Shown: positions 36,901-42,900 of the stretch, piece by piece
Position numbering within the stretch: the stretch's first letter is position 1
Layout of the letters: each line of letters starts with the position of its first letter
Source: Escherichia coli O157:H7
GTDB taxonomy: Bacteria > Pseudomonadota > Gammaproteobacteria > Enterobacterales > Enterobacteriaceae
DNA: 64,000 nucleotides
NCBI RefSeq assembly: GCF_013167455.1
Contig: NZ_CP038328.1
Reading direction: 5' to 3' (one strand)
Position numbers: made by a program

Positions 36901-39900
36901 GCTTAGCGCAACAAACGCGGCTACTTTCTTCATTGTGGTTCTCAATTACAGTTTCTGACTCAGGACTATTTTAAGAATAGAGAATGAAAGGTCATTGGGG
37001 ATTATCTGAATCAGCTCCCCTGGATTGCAGGGGAGCGGCAAGATTAAACCAGTTCGTTCGGGCAGGTTTCACCTTTTTCCAGATTGCTTAAGTTTTGCAG
37101 CGTAGTCTGAGAAATACTGGTCAGAGCTTCTGCTGTCAGGAATGCCTGGTGCCCGGTAAACAGCACGTTGTGGCAGGCAGACAGGCGACGGAATACGTCA
37201 TCCTGGATCACGTCGTTGGATTTATCTTCAAAGAACAGATCGCGTTCGTTCTCATACACGTCCATACCCAACGAACCAATTTTCTGATTTTTCAGCGCTT
37301 CAATTGCTGCCTGAGAATCAATCAATGCACCGCGACTGGTATTGACGATCATCACGCCATTTTTCATCTGATCGAAGGCGGCTTCGTTCAACAGATGGTA
37401 GTTTTCCGGTGTCAGCGGGCAGTGCAGAGAGATAACGTCTGATTCAGAGAACAGGGTTGGCAGATCGACATACTCCACACCGAGTTCCAGCGCCGCTGCA
37501 CTTGGATACGGATCGAACGCCAGCAGACGCATACCAAAACCTTTCAGAATGCGCAGCATCGCCACACCGATTTTACCGGTACCGATAACGCCTGCCGTTT
37601 TGCCATACATAGTAAAGCCGGTCAGACCTTCCAGAGAGAAGTTAGCGTCACGGGTACGCTGATACGCGCGGTGAATACGGCGGTTCAGCGTCATCATCAT
37701 ACCGATGGCGTGTTCAGCAACGGCCTCTGGATCATAGGCTGGAACACGGACTACTTTCAGCCCCAGTTCTTTTGCCGCGTCAAGGTCGACGTTATTGAAA
37801 CCGGCACAGCGCAGGGCGATATATTTAACGCCGTGCTTTTTCAGCTCTTCCAGCACCGGGCGGCTGCCGTCATCGTTTACGAAAATACATACCGCTTCGC
37901 AGCCATTGGCAGTTTTAGCGGTTTTTTCCGTCAGCAGAAAGTCAAAAAATTCCAGCTCAAAGCCAAAGGACTCGTTCACCTGTTGCAGGTACTTCTTGTC
38001 GTACTGTTTTGTGCTATAAACGGCGAGTTTCATAAGACTTTCTCCAGTGATGTTGAATCACATTTAAGTTACTAAAAATATTTTACAAAATTTCAAATTT
38101 AATTGAAAGCTATGGCGATATTGAAAAATTCATCAACAACTATGCTTAGTGTAGGCGCAACCTTCAACTGAACGGTTAAACATGCCACAATACCCGTATT
38201 GAATGCTTAATTTTTCGCTAAATCAGGATATTAACTACCCATGCTGGGTAAATATAAAGCCGTTCTCGCGCTGTTATTACTGATTATTCTTGTGCCGTTG
38301 ACGCTGCTGATGACGCTCGGGCTGTGGGTTCCCACGCTGGCGGGCATCTGGCTACCGCTCGGGACACGTATTGCATTAGATGAAAGCCCACGCATTACGC
38401 GTAAAGGTTTAATCATTCCCGATCTCCGTTATCTGGTGGGAGATTGTCAGCTTGCGCATATCACCAACGCCAGCCTTTCACATCCCAGCCGCTGGTTATT
38501 GAACGTCGGCACGGTAGAACTTGATTCTGCTTGTCTGGCGAAATTGCCGCAGACGGAGCAATCGCCAGCTGCTCCAAAAACCCTCGCGCAATGGCAGTCC
38601 ATGCTGCCTAACACCTGGATCAATATTGATAAACTGATTTTTTCTCCCTGGCAGGAATGGCAGGGAAAACTCTCTCTCGCATTAACCTCTGATATCCAGC
38701 AACTGCGTTATCAGGGCGAAAAAGTTAAATTTCAAGGCCAGCTGAAAGGGCAACAACTTACAGTCAGCGAACTGGATGTCGTCGCGTTTGAAAATCAGCC
38801 GTCGGTTAAACTGGTGGGGGAATTTACTATGCCGCTCATGCCGGATGGACTTCCTGTAAGTGGGCATGCTACTGCGACGTTAAACTTGCCGCAGGAACCG
38901 TCACTGGTGGATGCCGAGCTGGACTGGCAGGAAAATAGCGGGCAATTGATCGTGCTGGCACGGGATAACGGCGATCCGTTGCTCGATTTGCCGTGGCAAA
39001 TTACTCGTCAACAATTGACCGTAAGCGATGGTCGCTGGAGCTGGCCGTATGCAGGTTTTCCTTTGAGTGGCCGACTGGGTGTCAAAGTCGACAACTGGCA
39101 GGCAGGGCTTGAGAACGCTCTGGTCAGCGGACGACTGAGTGTGCTGACCCAGGGGCAAGCGGGTAAGGGCAACGCGGTGCTTAATTTTGGCCCAGGAAAA
39201 TTAAGCATGGATAACAGCCAGCTGCCTCTGCAGCTGACCGGTGAAGCGAAACAGGCGGACCTCATTTTATATGCCCGTTTACCTGCGCAGCTAAGTGGAA
39301 GTCTGTCTGACCCAACGCTGACCTTTGAGCCAGGCGCGTTACTTCGTTCAAAGGGAAGAGTCATCGATTCGCTGGACATCGATGAAATCCGCTGGCCTTT
39401 AGCGGGTGTAAAAGTCACCCAACGTGGTGTTGACGGACGTTTGCAGGCCATTTTGCAGGCGCATGAAAATGAACTGGGCGATTTCGTGCTGCATATGGAT
39501 GGGCTGGCGAATGATTTTCTCCCTGACGCTGGCCGCTGGCAGTGGCGCTACTGGGGAAAAGGGAGTTTTACACCGATGAATGCCACCTGGGATGTCGCAG
39601 GAAAAGGTGAGTGGCATGACAGCACGATTACGCTGACCGATCTCTCCACCGGTTTCGACCAGTTACAATACGGTACGATGACGGTAGAAAAGCCGCGATT
39701 AATTCTCGACAAGCCCGTCGTCTGGGTACGTGACGCACAGCATCCCTCCTTCAGCGGCGCGCTGTCACTGGACGCCGGGCAAACGCTGTTCACTGGCGGC
39801 AGTGTGTTACCGCCATCAACCTTAAAATTTAGCGTCGATGGGCGCGATCCGACGTATTTCCTCTTTAAAGGCGATTTACATGCTGGTGAGATTGGCCCGG

Positions 39901-42900
39901 TTCGGGTAAATGGTCGCTGGGACGGTATTCGTCTGCGCGGTAACGCCTGGTGGCCTAAACAATCACTGACTGTATTCCAGCCGCTGGTGCCACCCGACTG
40001 GAAGATGAACTTACGCGATGGTGAACTGTATGCTCAGGTTGCATTTTCTGCTGCGCCTGAACAAGGATTCCGCGCGGGAGGGCACGGCGTGTTGAAAGGC
40101 GGTAGTGCCTGGATGCCAGATAATCAGGTTAACGGTGTCGATTTTGTCCTGCCTTTCCGTTTTGCCGATGGAGCCTGGCATCTGGGGACTCGCGGCCCCG
40201 TTACGTTGCGAATTGCCGAAGTGATTAATCTGGTGACAGCGAAAAATATTACGGCTGATTTGCAAGGGCGTTATCCGTGGACTGAAGAAGAACCATTGCT
40301 GTTGACTGATGTTAGCGTCGATGTGTTAGGCGGTAACGTGCTGATGAAACAATTACGTATGCCGCAACATGACCCGGCGCTGTTGCGGCTGAATAATCTC
40401 TCATCCAGCGAACTGGTTAGCGCGGTTAATCCGAAACAGTTTGCTATGTCTGGGGCATTTAGTGGGGCGTTGCCACTATGGCTGAACAATGAAAAATGGA
40501 TTGTCAAAGATGGCTGGTTGGCAAACGCGGGGCCGATGACGCTGCGTCTGGATAAAGACACTGCAGATGCGGTGGCCAAAGACAATATGACCGCTGGAAC
40601 TGCCATCAACTGGTTGCGTTATATGGAAATCAGTCGCTCATCAACAAGGATTAATTTAGATAATCTCGGTGTGTTAACCATGCAGGCCAACATTTCGGGC
40701 ACCAGTCGCGTCGATGGTAAAAGCGGTACGGTAAACCTTAATTATCACCATGAAGAGAATATTTTTACGTTATGGCGCAGTTTACGCTTTGGCGATAATC
40801 TCCAGGTATGGCTGGAGCAGAATGCCCAGCTACCGGAAACTGGCTGCCCATCAGGAAAAGAGTGTGAGGAAAAACAATGAAAATAGTGATAGCCGCGTTT
40901 GCGTCCTCTTTTATGTTGGTTGGTTGCACGCCTCGCATTGAAGTGGCTGCGCCGAAAGAGCCAATCACCATTAATATGAACGTTAAAATTGAGCATGAAA
41001 TCATCATTAAAGCGGATAAGGACGTTGAAGACCTGCTCAAAACCCGTAGCGATCTATTTTGAGGTGATGATGAAAAGAACATTACTCATAGCTGTATGGG
41101 CCATTGGCCTGATGAGCGACAGTGCAATGGCTTTAACCCTGAACGAAGCCAGAAGTCAGGGGCGGGTAGGTGAAACGCTTAACGGTTACCTGGTGGCGCT
41201 ACAAACGGATGCCGAAACACAGGCATTAGTAAAAGATATTAATGAAGCTCGTAACCATAGTTACCAACAACTGGCAAAGCAAAATAATGTATCCACTAAA
41301 GAGATAGCCAAACTGGCTGGACAAAAGCTTGTTGCTCGCGCGAAGTCGGGGCAATATGTTCAGGGAGTTAATGGTAAATGGTTGCGCAAATAAATTATAG
41401 TTGGCTACAAAATGTATCTATTAATGTAATGATCTTTTACAGTATTTAAACTGACGTTAGCATGCTTAATTACCGTGGGTATTTCTACAAAAACCTTATA
41501 TATCCTTCCCTTAAATAACAAATCATTACCAATATATATATAATCACAAAATATATATGCAGCGTCAATGAATTATTAGTGTGTTTTTGTTTTTTGTCGT
41601 TAATTTTTAGATTGAAGTGAGTTTTTTGTGGAATATAATTCCATCAACTGTTTTTTTGTATGCTTTTACTTGCCTGATTTTAATATTGATTTTGTGAATT
41701 ATATAAGCATTTCTTTACTGCTTATTTCACTATGAATATTTACTACGATTTATCTTCAAATTCTGCATGGCTTGTTACGCACGGTCTAGATCTAAGGAAT
41801 TTTATATGCAAAGGAAAAAATTATTGTCTGTTTGTGTTGCCATGGCGTTAAGTAGCCAGACATGGGCTGCGGATACTTCAATACCCGACTCAACCGAAAA
41901 AACACGTAAGTCCAGTAAGATAACATGTCCGGCAAATATTCATTCCCTGAGCAAAGAGCAGCTAGAAAATTTATCCGCGGAGTGCAGAGAAAATAAAGAT
42001 AGTGCAGTTTTACCATGGGCAGCTGCAGGTCTTGCTGCAGTAGCTACGGGAATTGCTATATATACCTTAAGTGACGATGACAATCACCACCATAATAACT
42101 CCCCAGTTCCGGATGATGGCGGTGATACGCCTGTTCCGCCAGACGACGGCGGTGATACGCCAGTTCCGGATGATGGCGGTGATACGCCTGTTCCGCCAGA
42201 CGACGGCGGTGATACGCCAGTTCCGCCTGATGACGGCGGTGATACGCCGGTTCCGCCAGATGACGGCGGTGATACGCCAGTTCCGCCAGACGATGGTGGC
42301 GATACCCCGGTTAAACACAATCCTGTCGTCTATAAAAATGGCGTAACTTGGGATCAGGATGCAAAAACTGTCAAAATTCGCGAAACTACCTTTACCTACA
42401 GCCAAAATGCCGATGGGAGCTACACCTTAACGGCGCCTGAGGGCAAGGAGACGATAGTTAAGTCCTGGACAGTCCATGACGACAGCAACACCGTTGTCTT
42501 TGATGGCGTAAATACCTCAGGTGGCATCACCTGGAGTTACGACGATGATGGACTCATCCACATCACTAAAGAGGCCGGCGTCGTTGTTGACGGCACAACC
42601 GGGAATGCGATTGAGTTTGGTAACGCGATCATCACCGATCAGGGCGGCAACACGGCGCTGAATGGCGGTACTGTCATGACGGTTGATGGTGACAACATCT
42701 CCCTCAACAACGACGGCAAAACGACGGCCATCGGAGAAGGCTCGGTTGTCGGTATACTCACTGGCGACAATATCACCATTAACAATAATGGCGAGACGGA
42801 AGTTGATGGCGGTACCGCGGTAATCATCAATGGCGATAATACCAAGCTAAACACTGCGGGCGACTCGACCATCACCAATGGTGGTACGGGTAGCCTTATC

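What the first reader, a model, noticed from the sequence alone, without database searches (positions are those of the whole stretch)
38241..41393. ydbH-ynbE-ydbL envelope operon with translational coupling
An AsmA-like large protein, a 61-aa lipoprotein and a small periplasmic protein are encoded with overlapping or near-abutting starts. This is conserved core, not novel, and I note it only as context for the neighbouring lipid operon.
Basis: established knowledge. Interest (0 to 1): 0.15.

Follow-up and report, generated by a model that had tools for sequence, protein, structure and literature searches.

The report
Known ydbH-ynbE-ydbL lipid-bridge operon
This is the already well-studied E. 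coli operon for the YdbH-YnbE-YdbL bridge that is thought to carry phospholipids from the inner to the outer membrane; it is ordinary, except that in this O157:H7 genome the last third of the operon is a deeply diverged, recombined allele.

Summary
The window is E. coli O157:H7. It holds ydbH (38241-40880, 879 aa), ynbE (40877-41062, 61 aa, ATGA stop/start overlap) and ydbL (41070-41393, 107 aa, 7-nt gap). All three match their Pfam families far above cut-off, and YdbL matches the solved K-12 structure. Published genetics, cross-linking and structural work already describe the system. YdbH is anchored in the inner membrane. The outer-membrane lipoprotein YnbE extends its groove by beta-strand augmentation. 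Periplasmic YdbL restrains YnbE multimerisation. The system is redundant with TamB and YhdP. It is therefore already known and of low interest.

"Conserved core" needs one correction. In this genome ydbH is chimeric. Up to position 40403 it is about 99% K-12-like. From 40424 through ynbE, ydbL and the ydbA autotransporter gene (to about 47,500) it is 75-87% identical to K-12. Over the part that can be compared (to 42167) it is 99.3-100% identical to a cryptic-clade Escherichia, sp. E1V33. E. coli is sharply bimodal here: 374 of 5414 complete genomes carry this haplotype. All experimentally defined functional residues are kept and dN/dS is well below 1, so equivalent function is expected. Translational coupling is plausible because the overlap is conserved in 21 of 21 relatives, but it is untested.

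The parts
38034..38240 (.). ldhA-ydbH divergent intergenic region, presumed to hold the ydbH promoter
   Evidence: ldhA ends (minus strand) at 38033 and ydbH starts at 38241. The simple sigma-70 scan found no consensus promoter here, so the promoter is not located. AGGA at 38225-38228 is a weak, distant Shine-Dalgarno sequence.
38241..40880 (+). ydbH: 879-aa inner-membrane-anchored AsmA-like / YdbH-family protein
   Evidence: PF11739 E=4e-291 covering residues 14-863. NCBIfam equivalog NF007971, 1399 bits. N-terminal hydrophobic segment, residues about 7-40 (predicted helix 4-33). W791 and W857, which cross-link to YnbE (PMC11126948), and T303/G305/G308/G456, the gain-of-function sites (PMC8593681), are all present.
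40404..40423 (.). Recombination crossover inside ydbH (codons 722-728)
   Evidence: Sites that distinguish K-12 from Escherichia sp. E1V33 were scored. The last K-12-type site in the unbroken run is 40403 and the first E1V33-type site is 40424. For 36100-40360 the count is 491 K-12-type against 15 E1V33-type. For 40361-41393 it is 172 E1V33-type against 13 K-12-type, most of the 13 lying before 40404.
40877..41062 (+). ynbE: 61-aa outer-membrane lipoprotein; start overlaps the ydbH stop (ATGA, 40877-40880)
   Evidence: PF13617 E=1.7e-16. Lipobox L-V-G-C with Cys17 and Thr at +2. Residues 18-51, including the beta-strand I30-I44, are identical to K-12. The mature protein differs only at D52 (K-12 E) and K55 (K-12 E).
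41061..41068 (+). Shine-Dalgarno-like GAGGTGAT for ydbL, overlapping the ynbE stop codon
   Evidence: Read directly from the sequence. TGAGG overlapping the ynbE stop is conserved in most relatives.
41070..41393 (+). ydbL: 107-aa periplasmic DUF1318 protein, chaperone-like modulator of YnbE
   Evidence: PF07027 E=1.9e-30. Matches PDB 28oj_A 'Probable chaperone-like protein YdbL', E=1.8e-38. Signal-peptide-like N-terminus ending AMA, then LTL. Of the 16 residues mutated in bioRxiv 10.64898/2026.03.16.712125, 15 are conserved; the exception is the dispensable E60.
40424..47500 (+). Divergent haplotype block: ydbH 3' end, ynbE, ydbL, an AT-rich spacer and ydbA (an autotransporter gene, a pseudogene here)
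   Evidence: 75-87% identical to K-12 in the operon part and 69-92% in ydbA. Identity to K-12 returns to 94-99% at about 47,600. 99.3-100% identical to Escherichia sp. E1V33 as far as that contig reaches (window 42167). GC is 0.278 at 41400-41799.

Best explanation
The region is the ydbH-ynbE-ydbL operon of E. coli O157:H7. It encodes one of three redundant AsmA-like systems (with TamB and YhdP) that maintain outer-membrane lipid homeostasis. YdbH is held in the inner membrane by an N-terminal helix and extends a beta-groove across the periplasm. It is too short to reach the outer membrane on its own. The lipoprotein YnbE docks on the YdbH C-terminus by beta-strand augmentation and stacks on itself to complete the bridge. 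Periplasmic YdbL binds the C-terminal helix of YnbE and limits runaway YnbE multimerisation. The ATGA overlap and the 7-nt gap keep the three genes in one compact transcription and translation unit, and probably couple their translation. That would suit a system in which excess YdbL is toxic and YdbH levels depend on its partners. What is shown here: gene identity, family membership, the anatomy of the junctions and their conservation, and retention of the functional residues. What is taken from the literature: the protein interactions and the genetics. What is inferred: phospholipid transport itself (the papers state that biochemical proof is lacking) and translational coupling. In addition, this copy is a natural recombinant. 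A crossover at codons 722-728 of ydbH joins a typical E. coli 5' part to a deeply diverged 3' block (YdbH C-terminus, YnbE, YdbL, ydbA). That block is nearly identical to the one in a cryptic-clade Escherichia, and it most likely travelled as flanking sequence of the variable ydbA autotransporter locus.
For: Identity and families. Mechanism from papers: PMC8593681 reports that deleting tamB, yhdP and ydbH together is lethal. PMC11126948 reports the YdbH-YnbE cross-links at W791 and W857, YnbE multimerisation and a chaperone-like role for YdbL. bioRxiv 10.64898/2026.03.16.712125 reports the YdbL structure, its binding to the YnbE C-terminal helix and the toxicity of excess YdbL. Junction anatomy. 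Junction conservation: the ydbH/ynbE stop-start overlap (-4 or -1) is present in 21/21 sequences from Escherichia, Citrobacter, Raoultella, Pseudocitrobacter, Pluralibacter, Cedecea and Pantoea, and the ynbE-ydbL distance is -1 to 14 nt. Functional residues are retained. Purifying selection acts on the divergent block: dN/dS is 0.06, 0.03 and 0.23. Mosaic structure. Population bimodality.
Against: No experiment here or in the papers read shows lipid transfer by YdbH directly, or translational coupling. No promoter or terminator was located by the consensus scans. My structure model of YdbH was poor (mean pLDDT 46) and gave no significant fold matches. The beta-groove, AsmA-like fold therefore rests on the literature and the family assignment, not on a test made here. 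All functional work was done on the K-12 allele, and the O157-type YdbL is only 71% identical to it.
Confidence: 0.93

Rival explanations
1. The tight gene spacing is only operon compaction. ynbE and ydbL are translated by independent initiation at their own Shine-Dalgarno sites, not by coupling to the upstream gene.
For: Both downstream genes have good Shine-Dalgarno sequences at good spacing: GAGG 7 nt before the ynbE ATG, and GAGGTGAT ending 1 nt before ATG 41070, with its GAGG core 5 nt away. YnbE multimerises on each YdbH, so 1:1 synthesis is not obviously required.
Against: The stop/start overlap is invariant across at least 8 genera even though the surrounding nucleotides differ. Published work shows that levels of the three proteins depend on each other and that excess YdbL is toxic. 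Both points favour linked expression.
Confidence: 0.35
2. The divergent 3' block was imported into E. coli from a cryptic-clade Escherichia (E1V33-like) by homologous recombination. The ydbH 3' end, ynbE and ydbL were passive flanks of the ydbA autotransporter allele.
For: 0.6% divergence from E1V33 in the block, against 12.4% in the 5' part of ydbH. In the 3' tree the haplotype groups with E1V33, then E. whittamii, then E. albertii. In the 5' tree O157 sits inside E. coli. The block ends at the 3' end of ydbA. Other strains have different crossover points: GF66.1 about 150 nt further 3', and DG343-1 inside ydbL with a third ydbA type. That pattern is typical of repeated recombination around a variable surface-protein gene. 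The haplotype is in the minority (374/5414).
Against: The haplotype occurs in about 50 non-O157:H7 E. coli from many hosts, so transfer could equally have run from E. coli into E1V33. E1V33 is itself discontinuous relative to E. whittamii across ydbH. Only one E1V33-like genome was seen, and E. fergusonii, E. marmotae and E. ruysiae were not sampled.
Confidence: 0.5
3. The two haplotypes are an old polymorphism kept within E. coli, or the K-12 type is the imported or fast-evolving one. E1V33 then acquired the minority type from E. coli.
For: The distribution is strictly bimodal: 373 genomes at >=95%, 5032 at 80-90% and 1 in between. In the 3' tree the K-12 type branches below E. albertii on a long branch. 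K-12 carries states that are unique against 18 other taxa: YnbE E55, and YdbL E60, F37, Y38 and K52.
Against: The polarity of differences is mixed. In YdbL 9 sites favour O157 as ancestral and 6 favour K-12; in the YdbH C-terminus the counts are 3 and 4. Near-identity to a genome whose flanks are only 82-92% identical to E. coli points to a recent exchange, not to long co-residence.
Confidence: 0.35

Closest known systems
E. coli K-12 MG1655 ydbH-ynbE-ydbL (b1381-b1383), the experimentally characterised YdbH-YnbE-YdbL intermembrane bridge
   Same: Same locus between ldhA and the ydbA region. Same gene order and lengths (879 / 61 / 107-108 aa), the same ATGA overlap and the same 7-nt gap. YdbH is 98.1% identical and YnbE 90.2%. 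The YnbE beta-strand is identical, and all essential YdbL, YdbH and YnbE residues are retained.
   Different: Downstream of codon 722 of ydbH the DNA is 75-87% identical, with dS 0.68-1.77 against 0.028 upstream. YdbL is only 71% identical. YnbE has D52 and K55 where K-12 has E52 and E55. YdbL has E59-A60 where K-12 has A59-E60. The fea/tyn/paa cluster that follows ydbL in K-12 is absent, and ydbA follows directly.
TamB-TamA and YhdP (paralogous AsmA-like systems of E. coli)
   Same: According to the literature they belong to the same AsmA-like clan, are inner-membrane anchored and periplasm-spanning, and are redundant for an essential lipid-homeostasis function (PMC8593681).
   Different: YdbH is much shorter. 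It needs a small lipoprotein that extends the groove by beta-augmentation, plus a periplasmic modulator, where TamB uses a beta-barrel partner (PMC11126948). No sequence-level match to the other AsmA-clan Pfam models was found here, apart from a non-significant DUF748 hit (E=0.081).
ydbH-ynbE-ydbL of Escherichia sp. E1V33 (NZ_RHJI01000009.1)
   Same: The 3' block is 99.3-100% identical at the DNA level. YdbH C-terminus, YnbE and YdbL are 99.4, 98.4 and 99.1% identical as proteins.
   Different: The first 719 residues of YdbH are only 94.9% identical, and the DNA there and in ldhA/hslJ is 82-92% identical.

Membership tests
YdbH family (Pfam PF11739; NCBIfam NF007971 equivalog) | Full-length profile match above the curated cut-off | tested here: met
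   PF11739: 969 bits against a 26.3 cut-off, profile positions 1-893 of 893. NF007971: 1399 bits against an 824 cut-off.
YdbH family | N-terminal transmembrane anchor followed by a large periplasmic domain | tested here: met
   Hydropathy windows above 1.6 occur only within residues 1-40. The model has a helix at 4-33 followed by beta-strands.
YdbH family | C-terminal residues that contact YnbE (W791, W857) and the gain-of-function sites (T303, G305, G308, G456) | tested here: met
   All are present and are invariant in the 16-sequence alignment. The residues are defined in PMC11126948 and PMC8593681.
AsmA-like clan / repeating beta-groove superfamily | Continuous beta-taco groove fold with a chorein-N-like N-terminus | tested here: inconclusive
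   The AlphaFold2 model from a 16-sequence alignment had mean pLDDT 46 and pTM 0.36. Foldseek against the PDB gave no hit with E<=0.001. A profile search of PDB sequences gave nothing. Pfam gave only DUF748 at E=0.081. Membership rests on the literature.
AsmA-like clan | Synthetic lethality with tamB and yhdP deletions | not testable with these tools
   Shown for the K-12 allele in PMC8593681. Not shown for the O157-type allele.
YnbE-like lipoprotein (PF13617) | Profile match, plus a lipobox with a Cys that is lipidated and a non-Asp +2 residue (outer-membrane sorting by the Lol rule, established knowledge) | tested here: met
   60.1 bits against a 25.8 cut-off. The motif L-V-G-C17-T18 is seen in the sequence and conserved in 21/21 relatives.
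YnbE-like lipoprotein | Amphipathic beta-strand I30-I44 and the C-terminal helix K45-T56 that binds YdbL | tested here: met
   Residues 18-51 are identical to K-12. The helix differs at D52 and K55. The features are defined.
YdbL / DUF1318 (PF07027) | Profile match and similarity to the solved YdbL structure | tested here: met
   105.6 bits against a cut-off of 27. PDB 28oj_A, E=1.8e-38, over residues 22-107.
YdbL / DUF1318 | Residues required for function: L24, R28, E35, Y40, N58, R61, Y65, L68, N72, I79, K86, L87, R90, W104, K107 | tested here: met
   All 15 are present in the O157-type protein. E60, whose substitution is tolerated, is Ala here with Glu at position 59.
Translationally coupled operon | Stop/start overlap or near-abutment of consecutive ORFs, conserved across relatives | tested here: met
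   ATGA at 40877-40880 and a 7-nt gap before ydbL. The overlap is conserved in 21/21 sequences.
Translationally coupled operon | Downstream translation depends on upstream translation | not testable with these tools
   Needs reporter or polarity experiments. None was found in the papers read.

The most novel reading that the evidence does not exclude
The two deep haplotypes may be co-adapted interface sets, which would explain why the YdbH C-terminal docking region, YnbE and YdbL travel together. The laboratory K-12 type carries derived charge changes not seen in 18 other enterobacterial taxa: YnbE K55E, and YdbL A60E, A52K and N/S62K. YnbE-YdbL binding details worked out in MG1655 may therefore not hold for the O157 type or the ancestral type, and mixed combinations may work less well.
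Probability: 0.1. Interest if true: 0.4.

Novelty: already known. Interest (0 to 1): 0.15.

Why it matters
The only added value here is a natural experiment. E. coli carries two versions of the YdbH C-terminus/YnbE/YdbL contact module, about 18% diverged in DNA and with YdbL 29% diverged in protein. A clean crossover lies just upstream of the docking domain, and at least one natural YdbL chimera exists (DG343-1). These variants could serve as ready-made material for structure-function tests. They are also a reminder that conclusions from the MG1655 allele, such as those about YdbL E60, concern a residue that is atypical for the family.

Tried and rejected
(1) Structure prediction of YdbH from a 16-sequence alignment gave a poor model: mean pLDDT 46, and above 70 only for about residues 50-280. 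Foldseek against the PDB then returned only weak, unrelated beta-rich hits such as LptDE and OspA, with no E<=0.001. I do not use these.
(2) A profile search of YdbH against PDB sequences found nothing.
(3) A permissive Pfam scan found only a non-significant DUF748 hit.
(4) Promoter and terminator consensus scans found no more sites than in shuffles. None lay in the ldhA-ydbH spacer and there was no terminator after ydbL.
(5) Rfam found only MicC elsewhere in the window, and no RNA element in or beside the operon.
(6) I considered that absence of the fea/tyn/paa island explains the divergent allele, and rejected it. DG343-1 lacks the island yet has K-12-type ydbH and ynbE and a K-12-type 5' part of ydbL.
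(7) I considered modelling a YdbL-linker-YnbE fusion to see whether YnbE K55 touches the variable YdbL residues. I did not run it, because the tool returns no coordinates or contacts.
(8) A literature search for this mosaic (ydbA, autotransporter, O157, cryptic clade) found nothing specific. PMC4951805 simply treats ydbH, ynbE and ydbL as core genes flanking the variable paa region.
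Full report

Yes. Three consecutive plus-strand ORFs lie exactly at the stated coordinates: 38241-40880 (879 aa), 40877-41062 (61 aa), and an ORF ending at 41393.

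- The ydbH stop TGA (40878-40880) overlaps the ynbE ATG (40877-40879) as ATGA. A GAGG lies 7 nt upstream of that ATG.
- The ynbE stop (41060-41062) sits inside GAGGTGAT (41061-41068). Two in-frame ATGs follow, at 41067 and 41070.
- Spacing to the Shine-Dalgarno core favours 41070. RefSeq uses that start here and the equivalent start in K-12.
- The segment 38000-41600 is 100% identical to many E. coli O157:H7 chromosomes. There it is annotated ydbH, ynbE and YdbL family protein, between ldhA and an autotransporter gene.

**2. What are the genes?**

- YdbH matches Pfam PF11739 (E=4e-291, full-length) and the NCBIfam equivalog NF007971 (1399 bits; cut-off 824).
- YnbE matches PF13617 (E=1.7e-16) and YdbL matches PF07027/DUF1318 (E=1.9e-30).
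- YdbL also matches PDB 28oj_A, 'Probable chaperone-like protein YdbL' (E=1.8e-38).
- YdbH has one strongly hydrophobic N-terminal segment.
- YnbE has the lipobox L-V-G-C17 with Thr at +2. By the Lol sorting rule (established knowledge) this indicates outer-membrane sorting.
- YdbL has a signal-peptide-like N-terminus ending AMA, followed by LTL.

**3. How it works (from the literature)**

- Ruiz, Davis and Kumar (PMC8593681) showed that YdbH is one of six AsmA-like proteins of E. coli. [quoted passage not shown]
- Kumar, Davis and Ruiz (PMC11126948) showed that YdbH is predicted to be too short to span the periplasm.
  - YnbE is in the outer membrane and cross-links to YdbH W791 and W857.
  - The YnbE strand I30-I44 is needed for function and for multimerisation.
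  - YdbL prevents runaway YnbE multimerisation.
- De'Ath et al. (bioRxiv 10.64898/2026.03.16.712125) solved the structure of YdbL. They showed that it binds the YnbE C-terminal helix, that excess YdbL is lethal in a yhdP tamB double mutant, and which YdbL residues are required.
- The papers themselves note that direct biochemical evidence of lipid transport is lacking.

**4. Translational coupling**

- I extracted the two junctions from 19 related loci found in a scan of species-representative genomes, plus K-12. The taxa were Escherichia sp. E1V33, E. whittamii, E. albertii, a divergent E. coli, Citrobacter, Raoultella, Pseudocitrobacter, Pluralibacter, Cedecea, Pantoea and an unnamed enterobacterium.
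- The ydbH stop overlaps the ynbE start in all 21 sequences (ATGA in 18, TAATG in 3). The ynbE-ydbL distance is -1 to 14 nt, usually with TGAGG spanning the ynbE stop.
- This conserved geometry fits coupled translation. The published interdependence of protein levels gives a reason for it.
- Both downstream genes also have their own Shine-Dalgarno sites, and no experiment addresses coupling. It therefore remains an inference.
- The consensus scans located no promoter or terminator.

**5. A correction to 'conserved core'**

Megablast of the operon gave an odd distribution: 349 genomes at >=99%, but 5034 at only 90-95%.

A sliding comparison with K-12 MG1655 shows 99-100% identity from uspF through most of ydbH. 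Identity then drops abruptly to 87% (ydbH 3' end), 81% (ynbE) and 75% (ydbL).

| Segment | dS | dN/dS |
|---|---|---|
| ydbH codons 1-700 | 0.028 | 0.11 |
| ydbH codons 721-879 | 0.68 | 0.06 |
| ynbE | 1.77 | 0.03 |
| ydbL | 0.83 | 0.23 |

dN/dS stays well below 1 throughout, so both alleles are under purifying selection.

- K-12 homology stops at 41391, because the fea/tyn/paa cluster is absent here. It resumes weakly inside ydbA and returns to 94-99% only at about 47,600.
- The O157 3' block is 99.3-100% identical to Escherichia sp. E1V33 (NZ_RHJI01000009.1) as far as that contig reaches (window 42167). Upstream, that genome is only 82-92% identical to O157.
- Informative sites place the crossover between 40403 and 40424, codons 722-728 of ydbH. 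For 36100-40360 the count is 491 K-12-type sites against 15 E1V33-type. For 40361-41393 it is 172 E1V33-type against 13 K-12-type.
- Neighbour-joining trees of the two segments disagree. In the 5' tree O157 is inside E. coli. In the 3' tree it sits with E1V33 (distance 0.006), then E. whittamii, then E. albertii, and the K-12 type lies on a long basal branch.

**6. Population picture**

- For 40400-41393, E. coli complete genomes are strictly bimodal: 373 at >=95%, 5032 at 80-90%, and 1 in between.
- Using the GF66.1 allele as query, 374 genomes carry the minority haplotype. About 50 of these are non-O157:H7 strains from humans, poultry, pigs, cattle, mink, an otter and a frog.
- GF66.1 has the same YnbE and YdbL proteins as O157, but its crossover lies about 150 nt further 3'. 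Its ydbA is intact at 1964 aa.
- DG343-1 is K-12-type until about 41,100-41,170, inside ydbL. It then switches to a third haplotype that continues into its own ydbA variant, and it also lacks the paa island.
- The region around ydbA is therefore a recombination mosaic with several deep haplotypes, and the last third of the operon is caught in it.

The most economical reading is hitch-hiking with the variable surface autotransporter gene. The direction of exchange between E. coli and the E1V33 lineage is not resolved.

**7. Functional consequences**

Protein identities between O157 and K-12:

| Protein | Identity | Where the differences lie |
|---|---|---|
| YdbH | 98.1% | 12 of 17 differences in residues 763-871 |
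| YnbE | 90.2% | 4 in the signal peptide; D52 and K55 in the mature protein |
| YdbL | 71.3% | 78% identical in the mature part |

- Every residue with experimental support is retained. These are YdbH W791, W857, T303, G305, G308 and G456; the YnbE beta-strand; and YdbL L24, R28, E35, Y40, N58, R61, Y65, L68, N72, I79, K86, L87, R90, W104 and K107.
- Only YdbL E60 differs, and E60A is tolerated in K-12. O157 has E59-A60 where K-12 has A59-E60.
- Against 18 other taxa, several K-12 states are the unusual ones. YnbE E55 stands against K in 18/18. YdbL E60, F37 and K52 are also atypical.
- Overall polarity is mixed, so neither haplotype is simply ancestral.
- I expect equivalent function. A co-adapted-interface reading is possible but weakly supported, and the natural YdbL chimera in DG343-1 argues against strict incompatibility.

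**8. What did not work**

- The YdbH structure model was poor (pLDDT 46).
- Foldseek, the PDB profile search and the permissive Pfam scan gave no usable link to other AsmA-like proteins.
- The fold-level membership test is therefore inconclusive here and rests on the literature.

**9. Verdict**

The finding is accurate and describes a known, published system, so interest is low. The chimeric ydbH and the two-haplotype structure of the YdbH C-terminus/YnbE/YdbL module are a modest new detail. I did not find them described in the papers searched. They are useful as natural variants, but unsurprising next to a variable autotransporter locus.

Noticed in passing
window 40404-47500: ydbH is chimeric. 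A crossover at codons 722-728 joins K-12-like DNA (99%) to a block that is 75-87% identical to K-12, and 99.3-100% identical to Escherichia sp. E1V33 over the stretch that can be compared (to 42167). E. coli genomes are bimodal for this block: 374 of 5414 carry it.
   Followed up: yes
window 44683-44685 (within ydbA, open frame 41707-47361): The ydbA/BigA-type autotransporter gene is split by a single in-frame TAG, where the intact GF66.1 allele has CAG (Gln). RefSeq annotates two CDSs in O157:H7. It is a pseudogene here by a different lesion from the IS2/IS30 insertions of K-12.
   Followed up: partly
window 42103-42312 and near 43448: A 30/60-nt tandem repeat encodes PPDDGGDTPV units in the N-terminal part of ydbA. 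Strain PV15-279 has 156 extra bases near 43448 relative to the window, so repeat or indel length varies among O157:H7 strains.
   Followed up: partly
window 41394-41766: The 17-gene feaRB-tynA-paaZ-paaY cluster that follows ydbL in K-12 is absent. ydbL is followed by a 373-nt, very AT-rich spacer (GC 0.28) and then ydbA. Absence of the island is not tied to the divergent allele, because DG343-1 lacks it too.
   Followed up: yes
window 41064-41072: ydbL has three in-frame candidate starts: GTG 41064, ATG 41067 and ATG 41070. Shine-Dalgarno spacing favours 41070, which RefSeq uses.
   Followed up: partly
window 1-30010: The first 30 kb has no K-12 counterpart except short matches to Rac prophage genes. 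It ends at the Rac/ttcA attachment region, so a different lambdoid prophage occupies the Rac site.
   Followed up: no
window 32309-32429 (+): The MicC small RNA (Rfam RF00121, 125 bits) lies between ompN and nifJ/ydbK, as in K-12. It was the only Rfam hit in the window.
   Followed up: yes
window 60398-62201: A 1.8-kb islet between hrpA and ydcF is absent from K-12. It holds four small same-strand ORFs (141, 122, 145 and 136 aa) that are annotated hypothetical and have no Pfam match.
   Followed up: partly
It is not adjacent.
   Followed up: partly
E. coli genome search: Five matches to the operon are on records labelled as plasmids, and 9-12 complete genomes lack a match. Neither point was examined.
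   Followed up: no
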